64,000 nucleotides of DNA from Squalus acanthias (Eukaryota): the NCBI GenBank assembly GCA_030390025.1, contig CM059429.1:118172001-118236000 (forward strand). Reading direction: 5' to 3'. The notes under the pieces were generated by a model. It did not search any database, was not told where the DNA came from, and worked only from the letters and a program-made list of their open reading frames with translations. Positions 30,001 to 63,766 of the stretch are shown here, piece by piece (the first letter of the stretch is position 1; the number at the start of each line of letters is the position of its first letter). A program made the translations under genes and the position numbers.

Positions 30001-31882
30001 ACTTCTTAAAAAATTGTTATGCTATCTTTTGCTGTTACTAAGGATATACCTCAGTGTCATGTTCTTGAAATGTCAACAAGCACCTCAGAAATTGGCACAA
30101 CAAAATTGTTGTGTATTGTGCAGAAATTGCTGCTCATGAAGTGATCTCAATGTTCTGGTTAGTAGCAAATCATTTTAGGAATATGTATGAATATATTCCA
30201 TCTCTTTTTGCTTTTCTGCTTCATGCTTTGTAACCATCAAGTCCCTTACAGCATTACAGGATCTGGCCAAAGTGGACTGGGATCAGCTACTTGTAGGAAA
30301 ATCCACATCAGAGCAGTGGGAGTCTTTCAGAAAGGAAATAGAGAGAGTACAACGGCAACATGTTCCCGTAAAGGTCAAGGGTGGGACCAACAAGCCCAGG
30401 GAACCCTGGATGTCAAGGGATATACAAGAATGGATTAGGAAAAAAAGGGAGGCTTTTGGCAGATACAAAGGACTAAAAACAGTGGAAGCCCTAGAGGAGT
30501 ATAGAAAGTGCAGGGGGGTACTTAAAAAAGAAATTAGGAGAGCGAAGAGGGGGCATGAAAAAACACTGGCGGGCAAAATAAAGGAAAATCCAAAGGTGTT
30601 TTATAAGTATATTAAGGGCAAGAGGATAACCATGGAAAGAGTAGGGCCCATTCGAGACCAAAGTGGCAATCTGTGTGTAGAGTCGGAAGATGTAGGTGAG
30701 GTTTTAAATGAATATTTTGCATCTGTATTCACTATGGAGAAGGACGATGTAGGTGTAGAAATCAGGCAGGGGGATTGTGATATACTTGAACAAATTAGTA
30801 TTGAGAGTGAGGAGGTACTAGCGGTTTTAGCGGGCTTAAAAATGGATAAATCCCCAGGCCCAGACGAGATGTATCCCAGGCTGCTGTGTGAGGCAAGGGA
30901 GGAGATTGCAGGGGCTCTGACGCAAATTTTCAGAACATCTCTGGCCACAGGGGAGGTGCCAGAGGACTGGAGAACAGCTAACATAGTACCATTATTCAAG
31001 AAGGGTAGTAGGGATAAACCAGGGAATTACAGGCCAGTGAGCCTAACATCAGTGGTAGGGAAATTATTGAAAAAAATTCTGAGGGACAGAATTAGTCTCC
31101 ACTTTTGAGAGGCAAGGATTAATCAAGGATAGTCAGCATGGCTTTGTCGGGGAGATCATGTCTAACCAATTTGATTGAATTTTTTGAGGGGGTGACTAGG
31201 TGTGTGGATGAGGGTAGTGCAGTTGAAGTGGTCTACATGGACTTCAGTAAGGCTTTTGACAAAGTCCCACATGGGAGACTGGTTAAGAAGGTAAGAGCCC
31301 ATGGGATCCAGGGCAATTTGGCACATTGGATCCAAAATTGGCTTAGTGGCAGGAGGCAGAGGGTGATGGTCGAAGGTTGTTTTTGTGACTGGAAGCCTGT
31401 GTCCAGTGGTGTACCGCAGGGATCGGTGCTGGGTCCTTTGCTGTTTGTAGTGTACATTAATGATTTAGATATGAATGTAGGAGGTGTGATCAGTAAGTTC
31501 GCAGATGACACGAAAATTGGTGGAGTGGTAAATAGCGAGGAGGGAAGCCTCAGGTTACAGGACGATATAGACGGGTTGGTTAGATGGGCAGAACAGTGGC
31601 AAATGGAACTTAACCCTGAAAAGTGTGAGGTGATGCATTTTGGGAGGACTAACAAGGCAAGGGAATATACAATGAATTGTAGGACCCTAGGAAGGACAGA
31701 GGATCAGAGGGACCTTAGTGTGCATGTACATAGATCACTGAAGGCAGCAGGACAGGTAGATAAGGTGGTTGTAAAGGCATATGGGATACTTGCCTTCATT
31801 AGCCGAGGCATAGAATATAAAAGCAGGGAGGTTATGATGGAGCTGTACAAAACGCTAGTTAGGCCACAGCTGGAATACTGTG

Positions 31883-32097
31883 ATGTGGAGATGCCGGTGT
31901 TGGACTGGGGTGGACAAATGTGAGAAGTCGCACAACACCAGGTTATAGTCCAACAGTTTTATTTGAAATCACAAGCTTTCGGAGCGCTGCTCCTTCGTCA
32001 GGTGAAGTGAAGAGATGTATATCGGCACAGCATATATATGCTGTGCCGATATACATCTCTTCACTTCACCTGACGAAGGAGCAGCGCTCCGAAAGCT
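31883..32097 (-). mobile_element. Penelope-like foldback mini-insertion (family A) with perfect 128-bp palindrome
   Basis: TSD TGGAATACTGTG (31871-31882, 32098-32109); palindrome 31972-32099 centred in CATATATATG; the ORF track shows the same peptide on both strands. Confidence 0.93.
31969..32005 (-). ncRNA. Minimal type I hammerhead ribozyme motif (PLE-type)
   Basis: Minus strand UCAC-CUGACGA-A-GGAGC-AGC-GCUCC-GAAA-GC-U-U-GUGA: stem I UCAC/GUGA, stem II GGAGC/GCUCC, palindromic AGCU stem III. Confidence 0.85.
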
Positions 32098-34235
32098 TGG
32101 AATACTGTGTGCAGTTCTGGTCGCCACACTATAGGAGGGATGTGATTGCATTGGAGAGGGTGCAGAGGAGATTCACCAGGATGTTACCTGGACTGGAGCG
32201 CTTCAGCTATGAAGAGAGACTGGACAGGCTGGGGTTGTTTTCCTTAGAGCAGAGAAGGCTGAGGGGGGACCTGATTGAGGTATACAAAATTATGAGGGGC
32301 ATAGATAGGGTAGATAGAAAGGAACTTTTCCCCTTAGTAGAGAGGTCAATAACCAGGGGGCATAGTTTCAAGGTAAGGGGCAGGAGGTTTAGAGGGGATT
32401 TGAGGAAAAACTTTTTCACCCAGAGGGTGGTTGGAATCTGGAACTCACTGCCTGAAAGAGTGGTAGAGGCAGGAACCCTCACAACATTCAAGAAGCATTT
32501 AGATGAGCACTTGAAACGCCATTGCATACAAGGCTACGGACCAAGTGCTGGAAAATGGGATTAGAATAGACAGGGCTTGATGGCCGGCGCGGACACGATG
32601 AGCCGAAGGGCCTTTTTCTGTGCTGTATAACTCTATGACTAAAAATCAGAATGTGGACTGAGGAGAATCTTTGGCTACAAACTTGTGTACTTCTATTGCC
32701 TGAAACAATGCTTTGTCGCATCAATGCACTTTGCCGCTGATTCATTTTAAATTAAGAGGTTGAGTGGCATGGTTTGTTAGCACACAGGAACCAGGGTTTG
32801 AAAGACTCCGTTGTTTCAGCTAGCTATAACAATCTTGTATGATATGAGTTTCTAGTAGATACAGGTCCACAGCAAAACACAACCTACAATTCAACACATA
32901 TTGCACTGAATTGGAAATCTCATTCTGTGACAACAAGTATGACTACAGTATTATTGGAATGGAAAAGTTCATACTGATGTGGGAAAACTTTTTCTGAGGT
33001 TGAAGCACAGGGAGCTTACTTTGTATGTGGCTATACTACACCTAATCTGGGAGTGCTTAATGCTGAAAATGGGTGCCCAAAATGGAAAAATGTCACCTTA
33101 AATGAATTTTTTTTGGAAGCATTTTCCTTTGTGCTTTTTAAAATTAATTTGAACCGGTTAGTATTTGACCGAATGTTCAGAGCTGGCACATATTTTTCAG
33201 TTTCACATACTAGGTTCTTAGCCTGAAATGGAACTGTCTAGCCACATGCTTCTTACCCGTCTTGTCTTGTTTTCCTTCCCGCAACCCCCGCCCCCCCCCC
33301 CCGCCCCCCGGCAGATGTTGGGATTGAGGCAAACAGAAGGAGATTTAACATATTTGTGCATCTCAGCTGTTAATTTCTAAAGTGGTACTTGCATATATTA
33401 TTATATCAGCAGAAAATGTTAATAAAATCTCTACTTTAGTTATACATATTACTATTGGGGGCCTGAGTATTAAAAGCTTCACTTATTTACATATTTAGAT
33501 AAGATTTGTTGATGGCGAATGAAACTTAACCATTACCTCGACATCAGGTTGAGGGGGTGGGGGAGCAGAACTCTTGATATTCATCCCTTTATTTTCGAAG
33601 AGTGACTTCAATTTAAAGTGTAAATTGATCTGTAGGAAACAGTGAGTGTAACACAATGTTAGAAGAGCTGTTTACTTAGTCATGATGTATTGTGGTATTT
33701 ACAATGGGAGCTGTATTCTATTCTGCTTAAATAGTCAGACATGCTCATACCTTCCAGTGGAATTATGTTGCATTAGTAATATATATTCTCAGATTATTAG
33801 GTAGTGACTCTCTCAATTTAATTGCTTTCCCCTCTCCATAAATGGTGAAAATGTAGAACTGGTTTCAGCCCAGGCCAGTCTTGCCTTCTGACCTGAATCT
33901 GTACTGTTGTTTAGTGGCAATGTAATTGTCATCTACACACATGGCAACCGAGAAAATTGGCAAAAGCTGACATAAAAAAAACCTGCCCATATTATATGCA
34001 TTATGACATATGAAAACAAGTCATTATACTGGAAATGCAATGGGAAAAAGCTTGGAGGCCTGGAATTTAATCTGTGGGTGCAACCCAGAAGATAGACGCG
34101 AAAATGTGCCCATTCTGCCAATGTCAATTTACACTCAAATTTCCTGCAAATCTCATAAAAATATGCCTGAACGTAAAATGGATGGAAATCAGCGTAAACA
34201 ATCGGGGCCCAACAGAAGTGCCAAACTTACACGAT

Positions 34236-45987: not shown

Positions 45988-46415
45988 CCGTTCTCAGGAC
46001 ATGCCCAAGTGCTTTACAGCGAATGAAGTACTTCATGAAGTGTAGTCACTGTTGTAATGTAGGAAACGTGACAGCCAATTTGCGCACAGCAAGCTCCCAC
46101 AAACCACAATGAGATAATGACCAGATAATCTATTTATTTAGTGATGTTGGTTGAGAGATAAATATTGGCTAGAAGAGAACTCCCCTGCTCCTCTTCGAAA
46201 TAGTGCAATGGGATCTTTTACATCCACCTTAGAGGATAGACAGGGCCTCGGTTTAGCGTCTCATCCAAAGGACGGCACCTCTGACAGTGCAGCACTCCGT
46301 CAGTACTGCACTGCAATGTCAGTCTAGATTTTGTGCTCAAATCTTGGGAGTGGGGCTTGAACCCACAACTTTCTGACTCAGAGTAGAGAGTGCTACACAC
46401 TGAGCCATGGCTGAC
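45988..46415 (-). mobile_element. tRNA-derived DeuSINE (SacSINE1-like)
   Basis: Minus strand GTCAGCCATGGCTCAGTGTGTAGC (A box)...GGTTCAAGCCC (B box) followed by the Deu core (AGGTGCCGTCCTTTGGATGAGACGCTAAACCGAGGCCC..AAAGATCCCATTGCACTATTTCGAAGA). Confidence 0.9.
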
Positions 46416-47204: not shown

Positions 47205-48900
47205 CCAATTGAGGCATGAGCAACTGATCTAGAATTTCCTTATTTAACCCTTTTCCCCTTTATTGAACAAGAGTGTAAAATTTACCATCTTCTGTCCTTT
47301 GGCACAATTCCTGTTTGCCAAGATTTTTGAACAAATTATGACTCCACTGTCTCTTACCCAACTTCCTTCAAGATTCTGTGATGCACTTAGTCCTGTTTTG
47401 AATATTCATCTCCAGTAACGGCTTTTTCACATCCTCCTCAGGTGCTCCTCCTGCCTCCTACTTTCATCTTCTGTAAATAGTAAGTCAAGAATTTCCGCCA
47501 TTCCCTTACTCTTCCAAGTACAAGAACATCTCTTATCCACCCCATCTTTGACTAATCTTTTATTATCCATGTGCTTATAAAAGACTTTACTTTTTCCCTT
47601 TGTGTTGAATGCTTGTCTTCCATACTGTCACTGAGCCGTCCTGATCTTCCTTTTTGCTTCCATTCTACACTTTTTGTGTCCTAATTTTCTTCTGTATTAT
47701 CCTTGATATATTTATTGTATGTCTTTTTTAACCTCATTTTTGCTCCAAATTCTCTCTCTATGGAACTTCAATTTTTGACTTTTGGTGGAAATGCATTTAA
47801 TCTGTATCATCTTCAACTCCTATTGAAATTTCTCCCACTGCTAGCCTGCTGTTTGAACTGACACTTATTCCCAACTAATTAGTCTGCCCTGAATCCGGTT
47901 TCATCCCACTAAGATTAGCTAATTTTTAATTCAATACCTTTTATCTCTTCTGCTTTTCATTTTCTTCATCTGTTTTCAATTCGGTTACGGCCAGTATTTC
48001 CAAAGTGTTCTTCCTTTAGCCACTTACCTGTCCTGTTTTGTTATCCAGAACCAGATCGAGCACTGCATCATTTCTTATTGGACGTACAACTGCGTTCCAA
48101 GAACCCCTCCCCATTATTACAATTCTGTTACTACTTAAATGCTTTTAAATTGTCTCAGAACCTCATCCTCAATTTGTTTTGCACCATTTGGTCATCTATA
48201 ATATACCCCTACTATGATAACATCCCATCGTGTCAGCTGTGGCTCAGTGGGTAGCACACTCACCTCTGAAGGTTGTGGGTTCAAGTCCCACTCCAGGGAC
48301 TTGAGCACATAAAGCTAGGCTGACACTTCAGTGCAGTACTGAGGGACCACTGCACTGTCGGAGGTGCCGTCTTTCAGATGAGATGTTAAACCGAGGCCCC
48401 GTCTGCTCTCTCAGGTGAACGTAAAAGATCCCATGGCACTATTTCGAAGAAGACCAGGGGAGTTATCACCGTTGTCCTGGCCAATATTTATCCCTCCACC
48501 AACACAACAAAAACAGATTATCTGGTCATTCTCACATTGCTGTTTGTGGGACCTTGCTGTGTGCAAATTGAATGCCGCATTTCCCACTTCAGAAAAAAAA
48601 AGTACCTTCATTGGCTGGAAAGCGCTTGGAGACGTCCGGTGGTCGTGAAAGGCGCGATATAAATGCAAGTCTTTTATCTCTTATTTATTAATTCAACCCA
48701 GACAGACTCCAACTGAGCACCACCATCGATAAAAGCTTACCTTTCTATGGCTGTAATCCAACCCTTCAATTAATAATTCCACCTCACGTTTTTTTTTTCC
48801 CCTTCTCCGTCTTTCCTAAAAATATTTTATAGCCAACATATTTAGTCTCGACTGAAGGCAAATTTCCATTAAGGCTACAACATTTTATCCCGCCATTCTA
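47205..48900 (-). mobile_element. Old CR1 ORF2 (endonuclease/tether) relic interrupted by a SINE
   Basis: Pyrimidine-rich sequence colinear with 4560-5950 (e.g. TTATAAAAGACTTTACT, TCTCCCACTG, CCAGAACCAGATCGAGCACTGC, GTCATCTATAATATACCCCTAC). Confidence 0.6.
48232..48675 (+). mobile_element. Full-length tRNA-derived DeuSINE (SacSINE1-like)
   Basis: A box TGGCTCAGTGGG, B box GGTTCAAGTCC, Deu core GGAGGTGCCGTCTTTCAGATGAGATGTTAAACCGAGGCCCC..., L2-like tail GGCGCGATATAAATGCAAGT. Confidence 0.92.
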
Positions 48901-49430: not shown

Positions 49431-51301
49431 CAACAAAGCAGGGAAAGAAATGCTGAAGGATGGGCACTGTTGGGATCAACACACCAATGTTATTTGTGAG
49501 CTGATGCGTTGCTCTATTTCTCAGCTCGAGAAAGTAAAGCTGCCCGGACTGTTTGACAGGTGGAATATTTTAGTTCTGGCGTGTGTTAATGCATGTTCTG
49601 TTTGTTTATGTTGAGCAGAGACGCCGTTTTAAATGTAGTTTATACCTGGCACGGGCTCACTGGTCTCCCGGGAGATTACTCACTTTCAAAGTATTTGGTC
49701 AGAGCTGAGCAGATGGCTGAGTGGCTGCATCATTTTCAATTTGATCAGTGATGAGTTCTGTCATATGCTGACTGCTGTCAATTTATCCATTAGTGTATAA
49801 CTATTACTGTGTTAGCTGACGGAGACAAGTGGACTAAGTGGCTGATAATGGACTTTTCATTGATCAGTTTTGATTAAAATCTGCTTAGACTACTCTTTTT
49901 TCTTACTTTTGAGATGTATGTTTTTGTTGCCCTTCAGGCCAGGGAATGCAGTAGTGTTAGTTGAAAATGCAATGCTTGAGCTGCCCATGTGCTGTCTCAA
50001 GCAGTGTGGTGTTTACTGTAAGATCACCCAGGGTTGATATTCCTGTCTTTTTTCTTACCTTTTCATGGCAGGATGTTCATGTATGTAACTTTTACTGCCC
50101 AGTAGCTTTTTGGGAAAGATGTCTGTGAAACCATTTGATGCCAATTAAAGCTGTCCAGAGATGCGACTGAATGTGTGATCCAAACTTAATTGGCACAAAA
50201 ACACAAACCCATTCGGATCACCCACCAGAGGTTAAAAACAGCTGTCAAGTTTGTTTTATCAACATTTGTTTTGTTCTCTGCACAAACAAGAATGGGTTAC
50301 TAATTAATATTGACATAAGAATTGCGATCTTTGCCGGAGTTCCTTCTTTTGTTGGGTGATATTGATACTGATTTTGACAGAATTCTGGGGTTGTGCAGCT
50401 TTGCAACAGGGGTCACACTTTGCTTCCCTTGGGGAGGGAGGTTGGGCGTTTACAATTTAATTTGTTCCTGAGGGGGAATGGGTTGGTTAAGATACTCTTT
50501 TATGAGACGGGATCATAACTCTTTCGCGCACCCCTCCCCCCCGCCCCCCACACTTCCATACCCCAAAGAGCTTTTGCTCATAAAAAGGACATTTGTGTTT
50601 CTACAAACTCAAGTAAAAGCCAAACTTAATTTACACTCGTATGAAAATAATCATGTAAATATCTTTAAGAAGAACCAAGTATAGAATTTTGCCTCGAAAT
50701 ACTGCCTTTAATCTGTTATCTGTGATCTGGCATCTACAGAACTAATTTCCGATAGATACTACATTGCGATGCTTTACTACATTCCTGCACTATATAAATG
50801 CAAGCTGTTGTACAGTAGCGTTCAATAAATGTACAGATTCAGTCTTTAACCATACTATTCATTAACTGAATTAACAGTTGCAAAATTTAAGCTGTGCTTT
50901 GGTGCAAAAATGGTGGATAATAGGCAGCAGATTGATCTAGTGAGTTTTTAAATTCATTCTTGGGCTGTGGCTGTCGCAGGCAAGGCCCATCCCTGGTTGG
51001 TGTTGTGGAGGTGATGGTGGGCCACTGGCAGTCCGTGTGGTGAACGTGCTCCCTCAATTCTGTTGGGCGGTGAAGTCAGTGTAACTTCAGGCAAGCTCTG
51101 GAATTCTCTTAAACTGTAAACAGATCTGTGTGAAGGTGTCCATTTCACTGGTAGTTTGCCAGTAATATATGGAAATGCAAGTTTGTTCTTTTAATGATTT
51201 TTACCCCTTGAAAAATGAAAAGATTTTAGTACTAGAATTAAACCAACATAATTAGATTTTTTTGTTTATTTGAAGGTATCTGCGTAATAAGAAACAGGCT
51301 G

Positions 51302-51700
51302 CAATCTTTCTCCTCCACGTCCTCCTCCTCCATGCCCTCCTCCTCCTCCACACCCCCTCCTCCTCCTCCACGCCCCAATCTTTCTCCTCCACGTCCTCCT
51401 CCTCCACGCCCTCCTCCTCCTCCTCCTTCATGCTCCACGCCCTCCTCCTCCTCCTCCTCTTCCTCCACCCCCTCCTCCTCCTCCACCCCCTCCACCCGCC
51501 TCCACGTCCTCCTCCTCCACGCCCCCTCCTCCTCCTCCACGCCCCCTCCTCCTCCTCCACGCCCCCCTCCTCCTCCTCCACGCCCCCTCCTCCTCCTCCA
51601 CGCCCCCCTCCTCCTCCTTCTCCACGCCATTCTTCTCATCTTTCTCTTCCTGCTCCTCGTCTTCCTTCTTTCTCCTCCTCCTCATCTTTGTTTTCTCCTC
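51302..51700. repeat. C/T-rich low-complexity minisatellite (CTCCTCCACGCCCC / (CCT)n)
   Basis: Directly visible; causes the spurious Pro/Glu/Gly/Arg-rich ORFs. Confidence 0.95.
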
Positions 51701-62060: not shown

Positions 62061-62582
62061 GGGCTTTGCTTTCTGGTTTTCTTACTTGATCCTTGTTTGA
62101 TAGGACACTACAATAATGCATCCTTTTTAAACTCTGAATTCATTCAAGTACTGATCATCATGTTTTAAATACAAGGAGTCTTTTCCATTGGTTGATAAAT
62201 GATGTGCTAATTACATTTCTAGTCTTGTTATCCCAGTTAGAATGGCTCCCATTTTTAGATGATTGTTCTCTCATTTAGTGGGACTGTTATTGCTCTCACG
62301 AGATAACTCATTTTACAAAGTAGGTCACCACCAAACGAATGGGACATTTTTAAAGATGTGTTAGGGCAAGACAAATTTTATTGATTTCAGATTGGAGAGC
62401 CAATCTGTTATTCAATTTTATAATCGATCCGCCTTACATAATATATAACTTGCTGTTCTATCAATTCACTCTTTCATTTTTAATGAATATATAGAACAAG
62501 ATTTGTAACTCAGCTGGACTCTTTAAAATGCAGAGATCATAAAAGCTTCAAAGCTTGGTCCATCACTGTTGTTGGTAGAGAG

Positions 62583-62805
62583 CATGATGTGGAGATGCCG
62601 GTGTTGGACTGGGGTGGACAAAATTGAGAGGTCGCACAACACCAGGTTATAGTCCAACAGTTTTATTTGAAATCACAAGCTTTCGGAGCTATCGATTGCT
62701 CCTTCCTCAGACTTCACCTGAGGAAGGAGCAATCGATAGCTCCGAAAGCTTGTGATTTCAAATAAAACTGTTGGACTATAACCTGGTGTTGTGCGACCTC
62801 TCAAA
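62583..62805. mobile_element. Penelope-like foldback mini-insertion (family A), 87-bp perfect arms with 7-nt spacer
   Basis: 12-bp TSD GTTGGTAGAGAG (62571-62582, 62806-62817); arms 62624-62710 / 62718-62804; same outer end TGATGTGGAGATGCCGG as the 31.9-kb copy. Confidence 0.93.
62714..62755 (+). ncRNA. Minimal type I hammerhead ribozyme motif (PLE-type)
   Basis: UCAC-CUGAGGA-A-GGAGC-AAUCGAUA-GCUCC-GAAA-GC-U-U-GUGA. Confidence 0.85.
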
Positions 62806-63766
62806 GTTGGTAGAGAGAGCAGAGTTAGAATAAATAAGAGCAACTCGTGGCCAATGGAAGTCCAGTCACTGAATGGTTACAGCACAGAAGGAGGCCATTT
62901 GGCCTGTTGAGCCTGTGGGAGAAGCTTGGGAGAAGTGACTTTAAAACTGGGCAAAGTAGAAATGGGACAGATTGGATGGAGCTTTGAAGCCACCATTTCA
63001 CTTCAATGCTTAAAAATTGAAAAAACTTCAGTGCTTCAGAACTGGTTGAGTGTTCCCAGTTATCTGCCATTTTTTTCATTTGGGATGTGGCTTAAGCCAT
63101 GGATTATGGAACAGACTTAGAAGCCAGGTAAGTGGGTTTTCACATCACAAACAAGGCAAGAGAAGTAGATGGGAGTTTATAAACTTTGCAAAAGAAAATT
63201 CTAACATTCACTTGTATGTTAATATTTTGCCATCATGGGATTTATGTTCCCCTATAGCTGATTGCTGGAGCATTTCAAAGTAATTGGTCATTCACCTTTC
63301 TCCAAAAGGTTATAAACACTGTAAAAGTGGTATTGGGATTGGCAAAATAAGACCTGATTTATAACAGGAGTTATTCTCATTAATAACCAACCAATCAAAT
63401 GCATGAGTAGCAAACCCAAAACAATATCCTGGAGAGGAGCAAATTTGGATTTGTTTAGCCCAAGCTGAAAAACATTTGAGTTGTGATTTTCCAGTTCTTC
63501 TTTAAACTAAAGATGCCTCTCTGCCCATGTGCATAGAAGGAAAGAAAGGCAAAATGTCACTTTGCATATGTATTTACTGTCCTCCTAACTATTTTGCCTT
63601 CCATCACCTTCATATGCATGTACCGTTGTTTTCAAGGGGAGGAAGGCTAAGTATGCATTTGATCTCCATCAGTCTAGTGGGTGTGACTGAGCTCTTTGTC
63701 CAGTGCTGGGTATACATTGTGCTCTCTGATGGTGTATGGTGAAGGATAGGTATGTATTTGATCCTT

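What the first reader, a model, noticed from the sequence alone, without database searches (positions are those of the whole stretch)
62571..62817. Second independent foldback of the same hammerhead family: fixed outer end, variable fold point
Seen: same terminus (TGATGTGGAGATGCCGG...) as the 31.9-kb insert but a different 12-bp TSD. The 87-bp arms are perfect, the turn falls immediately at the CUGA core (7-nt spacer ACTTCAC), and the stem II loop differs (AAUCGAUA vs AGC) while GGAGC/GCUCC is kept. Inference: these are not copies of one MITE. Each is generated anew at insertion from different active PLE subfamilies, always keeping one arm with the full 3' tail and one truncated arm, so the process recurrently seeds long perfect hairpins (dsRNA/siRNA, ADAR substrates) in the host genome.
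Basis: partly seen in the sequence, partly recalled or inferred. Interest (0 to 1): 0.7.

Follow-up and report, generated by a model that had tools for sequence, protein, structure and literature searches.

The report
Back-to-back Penelope retrotransposon stump
This hairpin is two short copies of the ribozyme-bearing end of a very common Penelope-type jumping gene inserted back to back, a layout already described for that class; its fold point likely marks where the element's RNA begins, and nothing here shows that the hairpin is used by the host.

Summary
The insert is a head-to-head pair of pLTR ends of an endonuclease-bearing, Neptune/Nematis-type Penelope-like element. Its subfamily has a copy with an 892-aa RT + GIY-YIG-type ORF. 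It is not a MITE: 58 distinct junctions in 65 simple inverted copies, TSDs 8-15 bp. 'Inverted copy plus one-sided tail' is published (PMC8557442, PMC3846280), and this scan found it before, here and in other genomes. Corrections: the fold point is not freely variable; arms pile up at the A of ACTTCAC, 30-32 nt behind a TATA box, likely the transcription start. 21 of 97 copies have no inverted arm. Mechanistic clue: exactly one arm carries the tail, either arm may be longer (47 vs 42), and the two arms are short or long together (61 of 65). This best fits one RNA copied twice, once from each target strand. No expression, siRNA or editing evidence could be obtained. Known kind, modest interest.

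The parts
62571..62582 (+). left target-site duplication GTTGGTAGAGAG
   Evidence: single copy in the empty site, record 9
62583..62623 (-). unpaired PLE 'tail' (41 nt); ends at the ORF start codon (CAT at 62583-62585 on +)
   Evidence: 98.4% over 128 nt to the 5' pLTR/ORF start of L179
62624..62710 (-). tail-bearing arm; stops at C3 of the hammerhead core, so its motif lacks the 5' strand of stem I
62711..62717 (+). spacer ACTTCAC: the first 7 nt of the tail-less arm, holding the 5' strand of stem I; starts at the predicted transcription start (initiator-like A)
62711..62755 (+). complete minimal type I hammerhead motif: CTGAGGA 62718-62724, extra A 62725, stem II GGAGC/GCTCC 62726-62743, GAAA 62744-62747, palindromic AGCT in place of stem III, predicted cut after 62751, GTGA 62752-62755 pairing with TCAC
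   Evidence: read from the sequence against the features in PMC4209133; no Rfam hit at gathering score
62718..62804 (+). tail-less arm, ending at the inner edge of the tail
   Evidence: 98.9% over 94 nt to the pLTRs of L179 and L176
62806..62817 (+). right target-site duplication (one extra A at 62805)
31871..32109 (+). the other insert (AGC-loop subfamily) with its TSDs, folded in the ATATAT of the TATA-like box and lying inside an unrelated RT-coding repeat
   Evidence: joint 31870->32098 in contigs of X14/X15

Best explanation
The insert is two short copies of the end repeat (pLTR) of an endonuclease-bearing Penelope-like retrotransposon lying head to head between a 12-bp target duplication, and it was likely made in one event in which the element's protein copied one RNA twice. 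Inferred steps: the protein cuts both target strands about 12 nt apart. One 3' end primes reverse transcription at the outer start site (at the ORF start codon, giving the tail). The other primes about 37 nt further in (no tail). Both cDNAs run towards the RNA's 5' end. When the protein sits on the 5' pLTR of the transcript, that end is the transcription start at ACTTCAC, just before the hammerhead, so both arms are only 90-130 nt. End-joining then trims and fuses the two cDNA ends; here it removed 7 nt from the tail-bearing arm. The hammerhead is copied uncut, as a passenger. A transcript through the locus would fold into an 87-bp hairpin that buries the motif, but transcription is not shown.
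For: Shown: arms are 98-99% identical to the pLTRs of L179, which carries an 892-aa ORF with DKG, YIDD, CX4CX2C and VVY..C..C..YIG motifs; its relative L123 hits Pfam RVT_1. 75 of 97 tail-selected non-duplicate loci have an inverted arm; in 65 simple cases the second arm ends at -27..-41. In pairs picked by the hammerhead and not by the tail, 23 of 23 auto-called pairs had one tail-bearing and one tail-less arm. TSDs in 70 of 73, 8-15 bp, median 12; control 4 of 300. Neither arm of this insert contains all of the other (tail only left, ACTTCAC only right), so plain snap-back cannot have made it as it stands. Over 112 pairs the tail-bearing arm is longer in 47 and the tail-less arm in 42. Arms are both short or both long in 61 of 65 (Fisher p 7.5e-12). 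0 of 22 long ORF-bearing simple pairs have a partner that stops at the start-site class. Among long-long pairs of the AATCGATA group the ends correlate (rho 0.91, n 16; replicate rho 0.82, n 13). Arms share the allele at a three-allele site in 45 of 48 versus 23.6 expected. TATATA lies at -30 in 77 of 90 subfamily-A copies and at -31/-32 in 17 of 20 subfamily-B copies, although the sequence between differs; no AG precedes ACTTCAC. Contigs of two other organisms have loose ends at exactly 62711 (5 and 10 contigs). Literature: an anole PLE cuts and extends both strands, uses two RT start sites that bound the tail, is predicted to be a dimer, and does not need ribozyme cleavage (PMC11167929, parts 1-2 of 4 read); a TATA plus TCACT initiator-like pair in rotifer pLTRs (PMC3846280, passages).
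Against: In subfamily A the 16 long-long pairs show no length correlation (rho -0.29). The excess of near-equal ends (9 of 16 versus 1.7) did not replicate (3 of 12 versus 1.7, p 0.25). Mixed long/short pairs exist (4 of 65; 2 of 25). Five of 54 long-long pairs are exact palindromes, which a hairpin turn explains just as well. Recurrent 1-nt stem II loop insertions differ between the two arms in 8 of 48 loci, which fits two RNAs or error at a hairpin. Allele sharing could also reflect one subfamily being active at a time. In vitro the two strands did not differ in start-site use (PMC11167929). The transcription start is inferred from motif geometry and end pile-up; no 5'-end RNA data were available. 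Samples come from the first 44-89 Mb of one contig, selected by exact motif matches.
Confidence: 0.6

Rival explanations
1. Self-priming or fold-back: one cDNA (or an antisense template, as proposed in PMC3846280) turns on itself to make a palindrome, and later asymmetric deletion at the centre produces the spacer.
For: Explains shared alleles, long/short concordance and 5 exact palindromes among 54 long-long pairs. The 31.9-kb insert folds inside a self-complementary ATATAT. Central deletion of palindromes is known in animal cells (recalled, no call).
Against: Predicts the tail-bearing arm to be the longer, but it is 47 versus 42, with tail-less arms up to 2.5 kb longer (L126). Needs an extra step to stop the second arm at -27..-41 and join it to the target with a clean TSD. 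Ends pile up at the predicted start of the sense RNA.
Confidence: 0.2
2. Two separate RNA molecules, one per subunit of a dimer, each prime one target strand.
For: Arm-specific 1-nt loop insertions in 8 of 48 loci and 3 of 48 discordant alleles; no length correlation in subfamily A; L021 joins parts of two subfamilies.
Against: Independent RNAs should often pair a 5'-pLTR arm with a 3'-pLTR arm, and two tails or none. Seen: 4 mixed of 65, 0 of 22 in the long set, 0 of 23 same-type pairs; one double-tail locus (L213) and one with both arms ending at -60 (L178).
Confidence: 0.15
3. A non-autonomous fold-back element (MITE or fixed SINE-like hairpin) copied as a unit.
For: The exact 22-nt junction occurs 27 times in the genome. 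L007 and L009/L010 share one junction with different TSDs.
Against: Of 10 of those 27 examined, 2 are different junctions; of the other 8 the tail is on the ACTTCAC arm in 5 and on the trimmed arm in 3, with different stem II variants, outer ends and TSDs. 58 distinct junctions in 65. The L007 junction has only 3 copies. TSD length varies from 8 to 15.
Confidence: 0.02
4. The pile-up at ACTTCAC is a splice acceptor, a ribozyme cut or an RT stall at the hammerhead fold, not a transcription start.
For: In D. virilis the pLTR intron ends at the 5' end of helix I (PMC4209133, passage). The stop coincides with the 5' edge of stem I.
Against: No AG before ACTTCAC and no constant upstream exon at junctions. 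The predicted cut is 36 nt away (-91), where only 3 of 162 ends fall, 2 of them explained by TCAC microhomology. A stall acting on each arm separately would mix long and short arms.
Confidence: 0.15

Closest known systems
Inverted 5'-truncated pLTR with one-sided 30-40 bp tail in EN+ Penelope-like elements (Craig et al. 2021, PMC8557442, Fig. 2 legend; passages read)
   Same: Head-to-head inverted copy, tail at one end only, strong 5' truncation, hammerhead in the pLTR.
   Different: Here both halves are usually pLTR stumps with no ORF, and their inner ends pile up at one base. That pile-up and the arm-length coupling were not in the passages read.
Adineta vaga Pen2/Pen2a (Arkhipova et al. 2013, PMC3846280; passages read)
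   Same: Inverted pLTR, 31-bp tail, 8-10 bp TSD, TATA box plus TCACT initiator-like motif in the pLTR, palindromic junctions.
   Different: That paper favours self-priming on an antisense template; the symmetry and start-site stop seen here favour two sense-templated cDNAs. Copy number here is in the thousands.
Poseidon of Anolis carolinensis in vitro (Frangieh et al. 2024, PMC11167929; parts 1-2 of 4 read)
   Same: Both strands cut and extended, two RT start sites bounding the tail, ribozyme cleavage dispensable.
   Different: Penelope/Poseidon clade; its ORF starts inside the hammerhead and the tail lies in the ORF. Here the ATG is at the tail's outer end and the linker has the CX4CX2C motif. 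Joining of the two cDNAs was not shown there.
Minimal hammerheads of metazoan PLEs (Cervera and de la Pena 2014, PMC4209133; passages read)
   Same: Extra nucleotide between 9 and 10.1, G10.1-C11.1 pair, short helix I, palindromic 15.2-16.2, variable stem II among families in one genome.
   Different: Activity of this motif was not tested; in the hairpin it is predicted to be buried.

Membership tests
EN+ Penelope-like element | single ORF with RT and C-terminal GIY-YIG endonuclease linked to the same pLTR | tested here: met
   L179: 892-aa ORF between two AATCGATA pLTRs, 98-99% identical to the arms. RVT_1 E 1.2e-8 on L123. Pfam GIY-YIG did not score on our copies; it is assigned from motifs read by eye and from PF01541 listed on many homologues.
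EN+ Penelope-like element | pLTRs in partial tandem or inverted arrangement | tested here: met
   L123, L124, L176
EN+ Penelope-like element | 30-40 bp tail at one end only | tested here: met
   tail-less arms end at -27..-41 in 65 of 65 simple pairs; that range was part of the class definition, and 2 other inverted loci fell outside it; 23 of 23
EN+ Penelope-like element | DKG motif and CCHH-type cysteines between GIY and YIG | tested here: met
   ADKGG and VVYLIRCRKECTAAWYIG; definitions from PMC8557442
Neptune / Nematis clades | CX2-5CxxC linker between RT and EN | tested here: met
   CHGKLCKTC
Neptune (versus Nematis) | placement in an RT tree with named references | not tested
   no reference sequences held; no tree built
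Minimal type I hammerhead | core CUGANGA / GAAA / NUH, helix I, helix II, palindromic 15.2-16.2 | tested here: met
   read from the sequence for the right arm; the left arm lacks helix I; Rfam gave no hit
Minimal type I hammerhead | self-cleavage | not testable with these tools
   needs an assay
DNA MITE | many copies with fixed internal structure, terminal inverted repeats and constant short TSD | tested here: not met
Non-LTR retrozyme | head-to-tail tandem units each with a hammerhead | tested here: not met
   head-to-head pair; definition from bioRxiv 10.64898/2026.07.22.740005, part 1 of 5 read

The most novel reading that the evidence does not exclude
Thousands of these stumps are a fossil record of an undescribed PLE insertion step: an asymmetric RT dimer copies ONE RNA twice at staggered start sites, one cDNA per target strand, and both run off at the same 5' end. 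Insertions primed on the 5' pLTR become promoter-less hairpin stumps ending at the transcription start. This would replace self-priming as the origin of PLE inverted repeats.
Probability: 0.45. Interest if true: 0.55.

Novelty: new member of a known kind. Interest (0 to 1): 0.27.

Why it matters
How Penelope-like elements make their inverted structures is called undefined in PMC8557442 and left open in PMC11167929. The counts here give three testable predictions: a start site at ACTTCAC, one tail per pair, and one RNA per pair. The locus itself is an ordinary dead stump. A host role for the hairpins would matter only if they are shown to be transcribed and processed; nothing here shows that.

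Tried and rejected
Rfam: no match at gathering score in the window. Pfam: no hit on two ORF pieces of L015; no GIY-YIG hit on L123. PDB sequence search: nothing significant. Host gene: 32 of the 39 stop-to-stop frames of 110 aa or more were scanned and gave only two RT hits; shorter exons were not sought, so intronic versus intergenic is unknown. Expression and editing: only contigs of other organisms were offered; the three RNA-guess runs did not cover most of the unique flanks, which is no evidence either way. Ends at the ribozyme cut site: 3 of 162, not separable from microhomology. MITE, splice-acceptor and retrozyme readings were rejected as above. Rows dropped: L010 and L055 as duplicates of L009 and L054; 32 of 97 loci were not 'simple' and were left out of the pair counts. 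Of the 48 long loci, 22 simple pairs were used; the rest were single-armed, complex or ambiguous. In one search, eight second hits of the same pair were skipped; L272 is an alignment artefact of a more diverged subfamily; several 92%-identity loci could not be called; one L252 pair was overwritten and restored. The 25 pairs set B were read by hand, leaving out L133, L176, L178 and L179. Literature searches that found no account of the start-site pile-up or arm coupling: (listings only; open-licence library, most subscription papers absent; supplements not read). PMC2377424: passages only.

Full report
Observation. The insert is as described. Arms 62624-62710 and 62718-62804 are perfectly complementary over 87 bp around ACTTCAC, and GTTGGTAGAGAG is duplicated at 62571-62582 and 62806-62817. 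The fold is far beyond chance (z -27.6). A contig from another organism joins 62570 straight to 62806, the empty site. The unpaired end is 41 nt (62583-62623); its first three bases are the reverse complement of the element's start codon. The 31.9-kb insert has 64-bp arms, no spacer and a different TSD.

What it belongs to. A 38-nt piece of the tail has 7,252 exact matches in the genome; the AATCGATA stem has 6,603 and a variant 3,802. Following long copies gave intact frames: 920 aa stop-to-stop in L123 and L124 (AGC-loop subfamily) and an 892-aa ORF in L179 (AATCGATA subfamily), 93.5% identical to the first. The window's arms are 98-99% identical to the L179 pLTRs and 88-91% to L124's. The protein has an RT domain, DKG, YIDD, a CX4CX2C linker and a GIY-YIG-type end read by eye. 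Its nearest database relatives are labelled as shark proteins, then turtle and invertebrate ones, many with PF01541. By the definitions in PMC8557442 this is a C-terminal EN+ PLE of Neptune/Nematis type; no tree was built.

Not a MITE. Coordinates below count from the A of the start codon in the 3' pLTR of L124. Of 97 non-duplicate tail-selected loci, 65 are simple head-to-head pairs, 8 have a complex centre, 2 are other inversions, 21 have no inverted arm and 1 ran beyond the stretch. The 65 show 58 distinct junctions. TSDs were found in 70 of 73, 8-15 bp, median 12, against 4 of 300 in mispaired flanks. The exact junction of this insert recurs 27 times. Among 10 examined, 2 are other junctions; of 8 true ones the tail lies on the ACTTCAC arm in 5 and on the trimmed arm in 3, with different stems, ends and TSDs. 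So the same fold arises repeatedly and independently.

The fold point is not free. Arm ends pile up at -126/-127, the A of ACTTCAC: hazard 0.168 per nt, against 0.028 just inside (-115..-125) and 0.0025 beyond (-135..-160). Genome-wide, 19,103 arms of the AGC subfamily reach -127, 13,064 reach -130 and 11,986 reach -134: 32% are lost over three bases and 8% over the next four. TATATA lies 30 nt upstream in 77 of 90 AGC-type copies and 31-32 nt upstream in 17 of 20 AATCGATA copies, with a different spacer; no AG precedes the A. An initiator-like TCACT behind a TATA box was described in rotifer pLTRs (PMC3846280). I infer a transcription start; this is not measured. The predicted ribozyme cut is at -91, where only 3 of 162 ends fall.

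How it is likely made. Four facts constrain the mechanism. (a) One arm has the tail and the other lacks it, also when loci are picked by the hammerhead (23 of 23; exceptions L213 and L178). (b) Either arm may be longer at the centre (47 versus 42 of 112); in this insert neither arm holds all of the other. (c) Arms are short together or long together (61 of 65; 0 of 22 long ORF-bearing pairs have a start-site-class partner). In the AATCGATA group long ends correlate (rho 0.91, n 16; replicate 0.82, n 13), but not in the AGC group (rho -0.29, n 16), and the excess of near-equal ends did not replicate. (d) Arms share a three-allele site in 45 of 48 (23.6 expected), though 8 of 48 differ by a recurrent 1-nt loop insertion. 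An anole PLE cuts and extends both strands from two start sites that bound the tail (PMC11167929). The simplest reading is one RNA copied twice, once from each target strand, with both cDNAs running to the RNA's 5' end and then trimmed and joined. Junctions are blunt, overlap by 1-13 nt or carry short inserts, as end-joining gives. I put this at 0.6, fold-back with later central deletion at 0.2 and two RNAs at 0.15.

The dsRNA claim. A transcript across the locus would fold into the hairpin and bury the one complete hammerhead motif (predicted). Whether it is transcribed is unknown: no raw RNA reads were offered, contigs of other organisms cannot show it, and no host exon was found among 32 of 39 long frames. 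Most copies are no longer perfect: 11 of 48 have no difference over 70 nt, mean 1.6.

Comparison with what is known. The inverted truncated copy with a one-sided 30-40 bp tail is the published PLE layout (PMC8557442; PMC3846280; PMC2377424). Minimal hammerheads with variable stem II families are published too (PMC4209133). Six searches of the open library gave no account of the start-site pile-up or of arm coupling (listings only). This scan's earlier notes report the same architecture at least eight times in this genome, and the start-site stop and double copying in other genomes; these are unchecked AI notes, not support. Verdict: real, a member of a known kind, with a useful but unproven mechanistic clue. 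Interest 0.27.

Noticed in passing
window 32036-32099: The tail-less arm of the 31.9-kb insert ends at about -91/-93, the predicted hammerhead cut site, not at -27..-41 as in the other simple pairs; TG is shared with the TSD. One case; it could record priming at the end of a self-cleaved RNA, or be chance.
   Followed up: partly
L007 and L009/L010 (G000:C1:3.43 Mb, 3.97 Mb, 3.98 Mb): Two insertions with different TSDs share one exact junction (-200/-134); only 3 copies exist in the genome, all within 0.55 Mb. Possible local re-copying of a hairpin or gene conversion.
   Followed up: partly
L169, L174, L053 junctions: Short inserts at the fold repeat nearby arm sequence, like templated insertions of end-joining (resemblance recalled, not tested).
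   Followed up: no
stem II loop, 8 of 48 loci: Recurrent 1-nt insertions in the hammerhead loop on one arm only: two templates, RT error or assembly error at hairpins.
   Followed up: partly
L201:5505-7987, L206:4260-7975, L128: Very long near-perfect palindromes of the element (arms of 1.2, 1.85 and 2.2 kb), two of them centred at the same element base on both arms.
   Followed up: partly
L021, L014, L193: Nested or chimeric insertions that join pieces of different subfamilies of the same element.
   Followed up: no
P0016: A database protein named as an epsin-2 isoform includes about 260 aa of this element's RT region: exonisation or a gene-model error.
   Followed up: no
window 51300-51700: Pyrimidine-rich (CCT)n-type imperfect tandem repeat of about 400 bp.
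   Followed up: no
window 45.9-48.6 kb: Inverted repeat pairs about 2 kb apart (46052-46331 versus 48311-48594, 79-84%), possibly an old DNA transposon.
   Followed up: no
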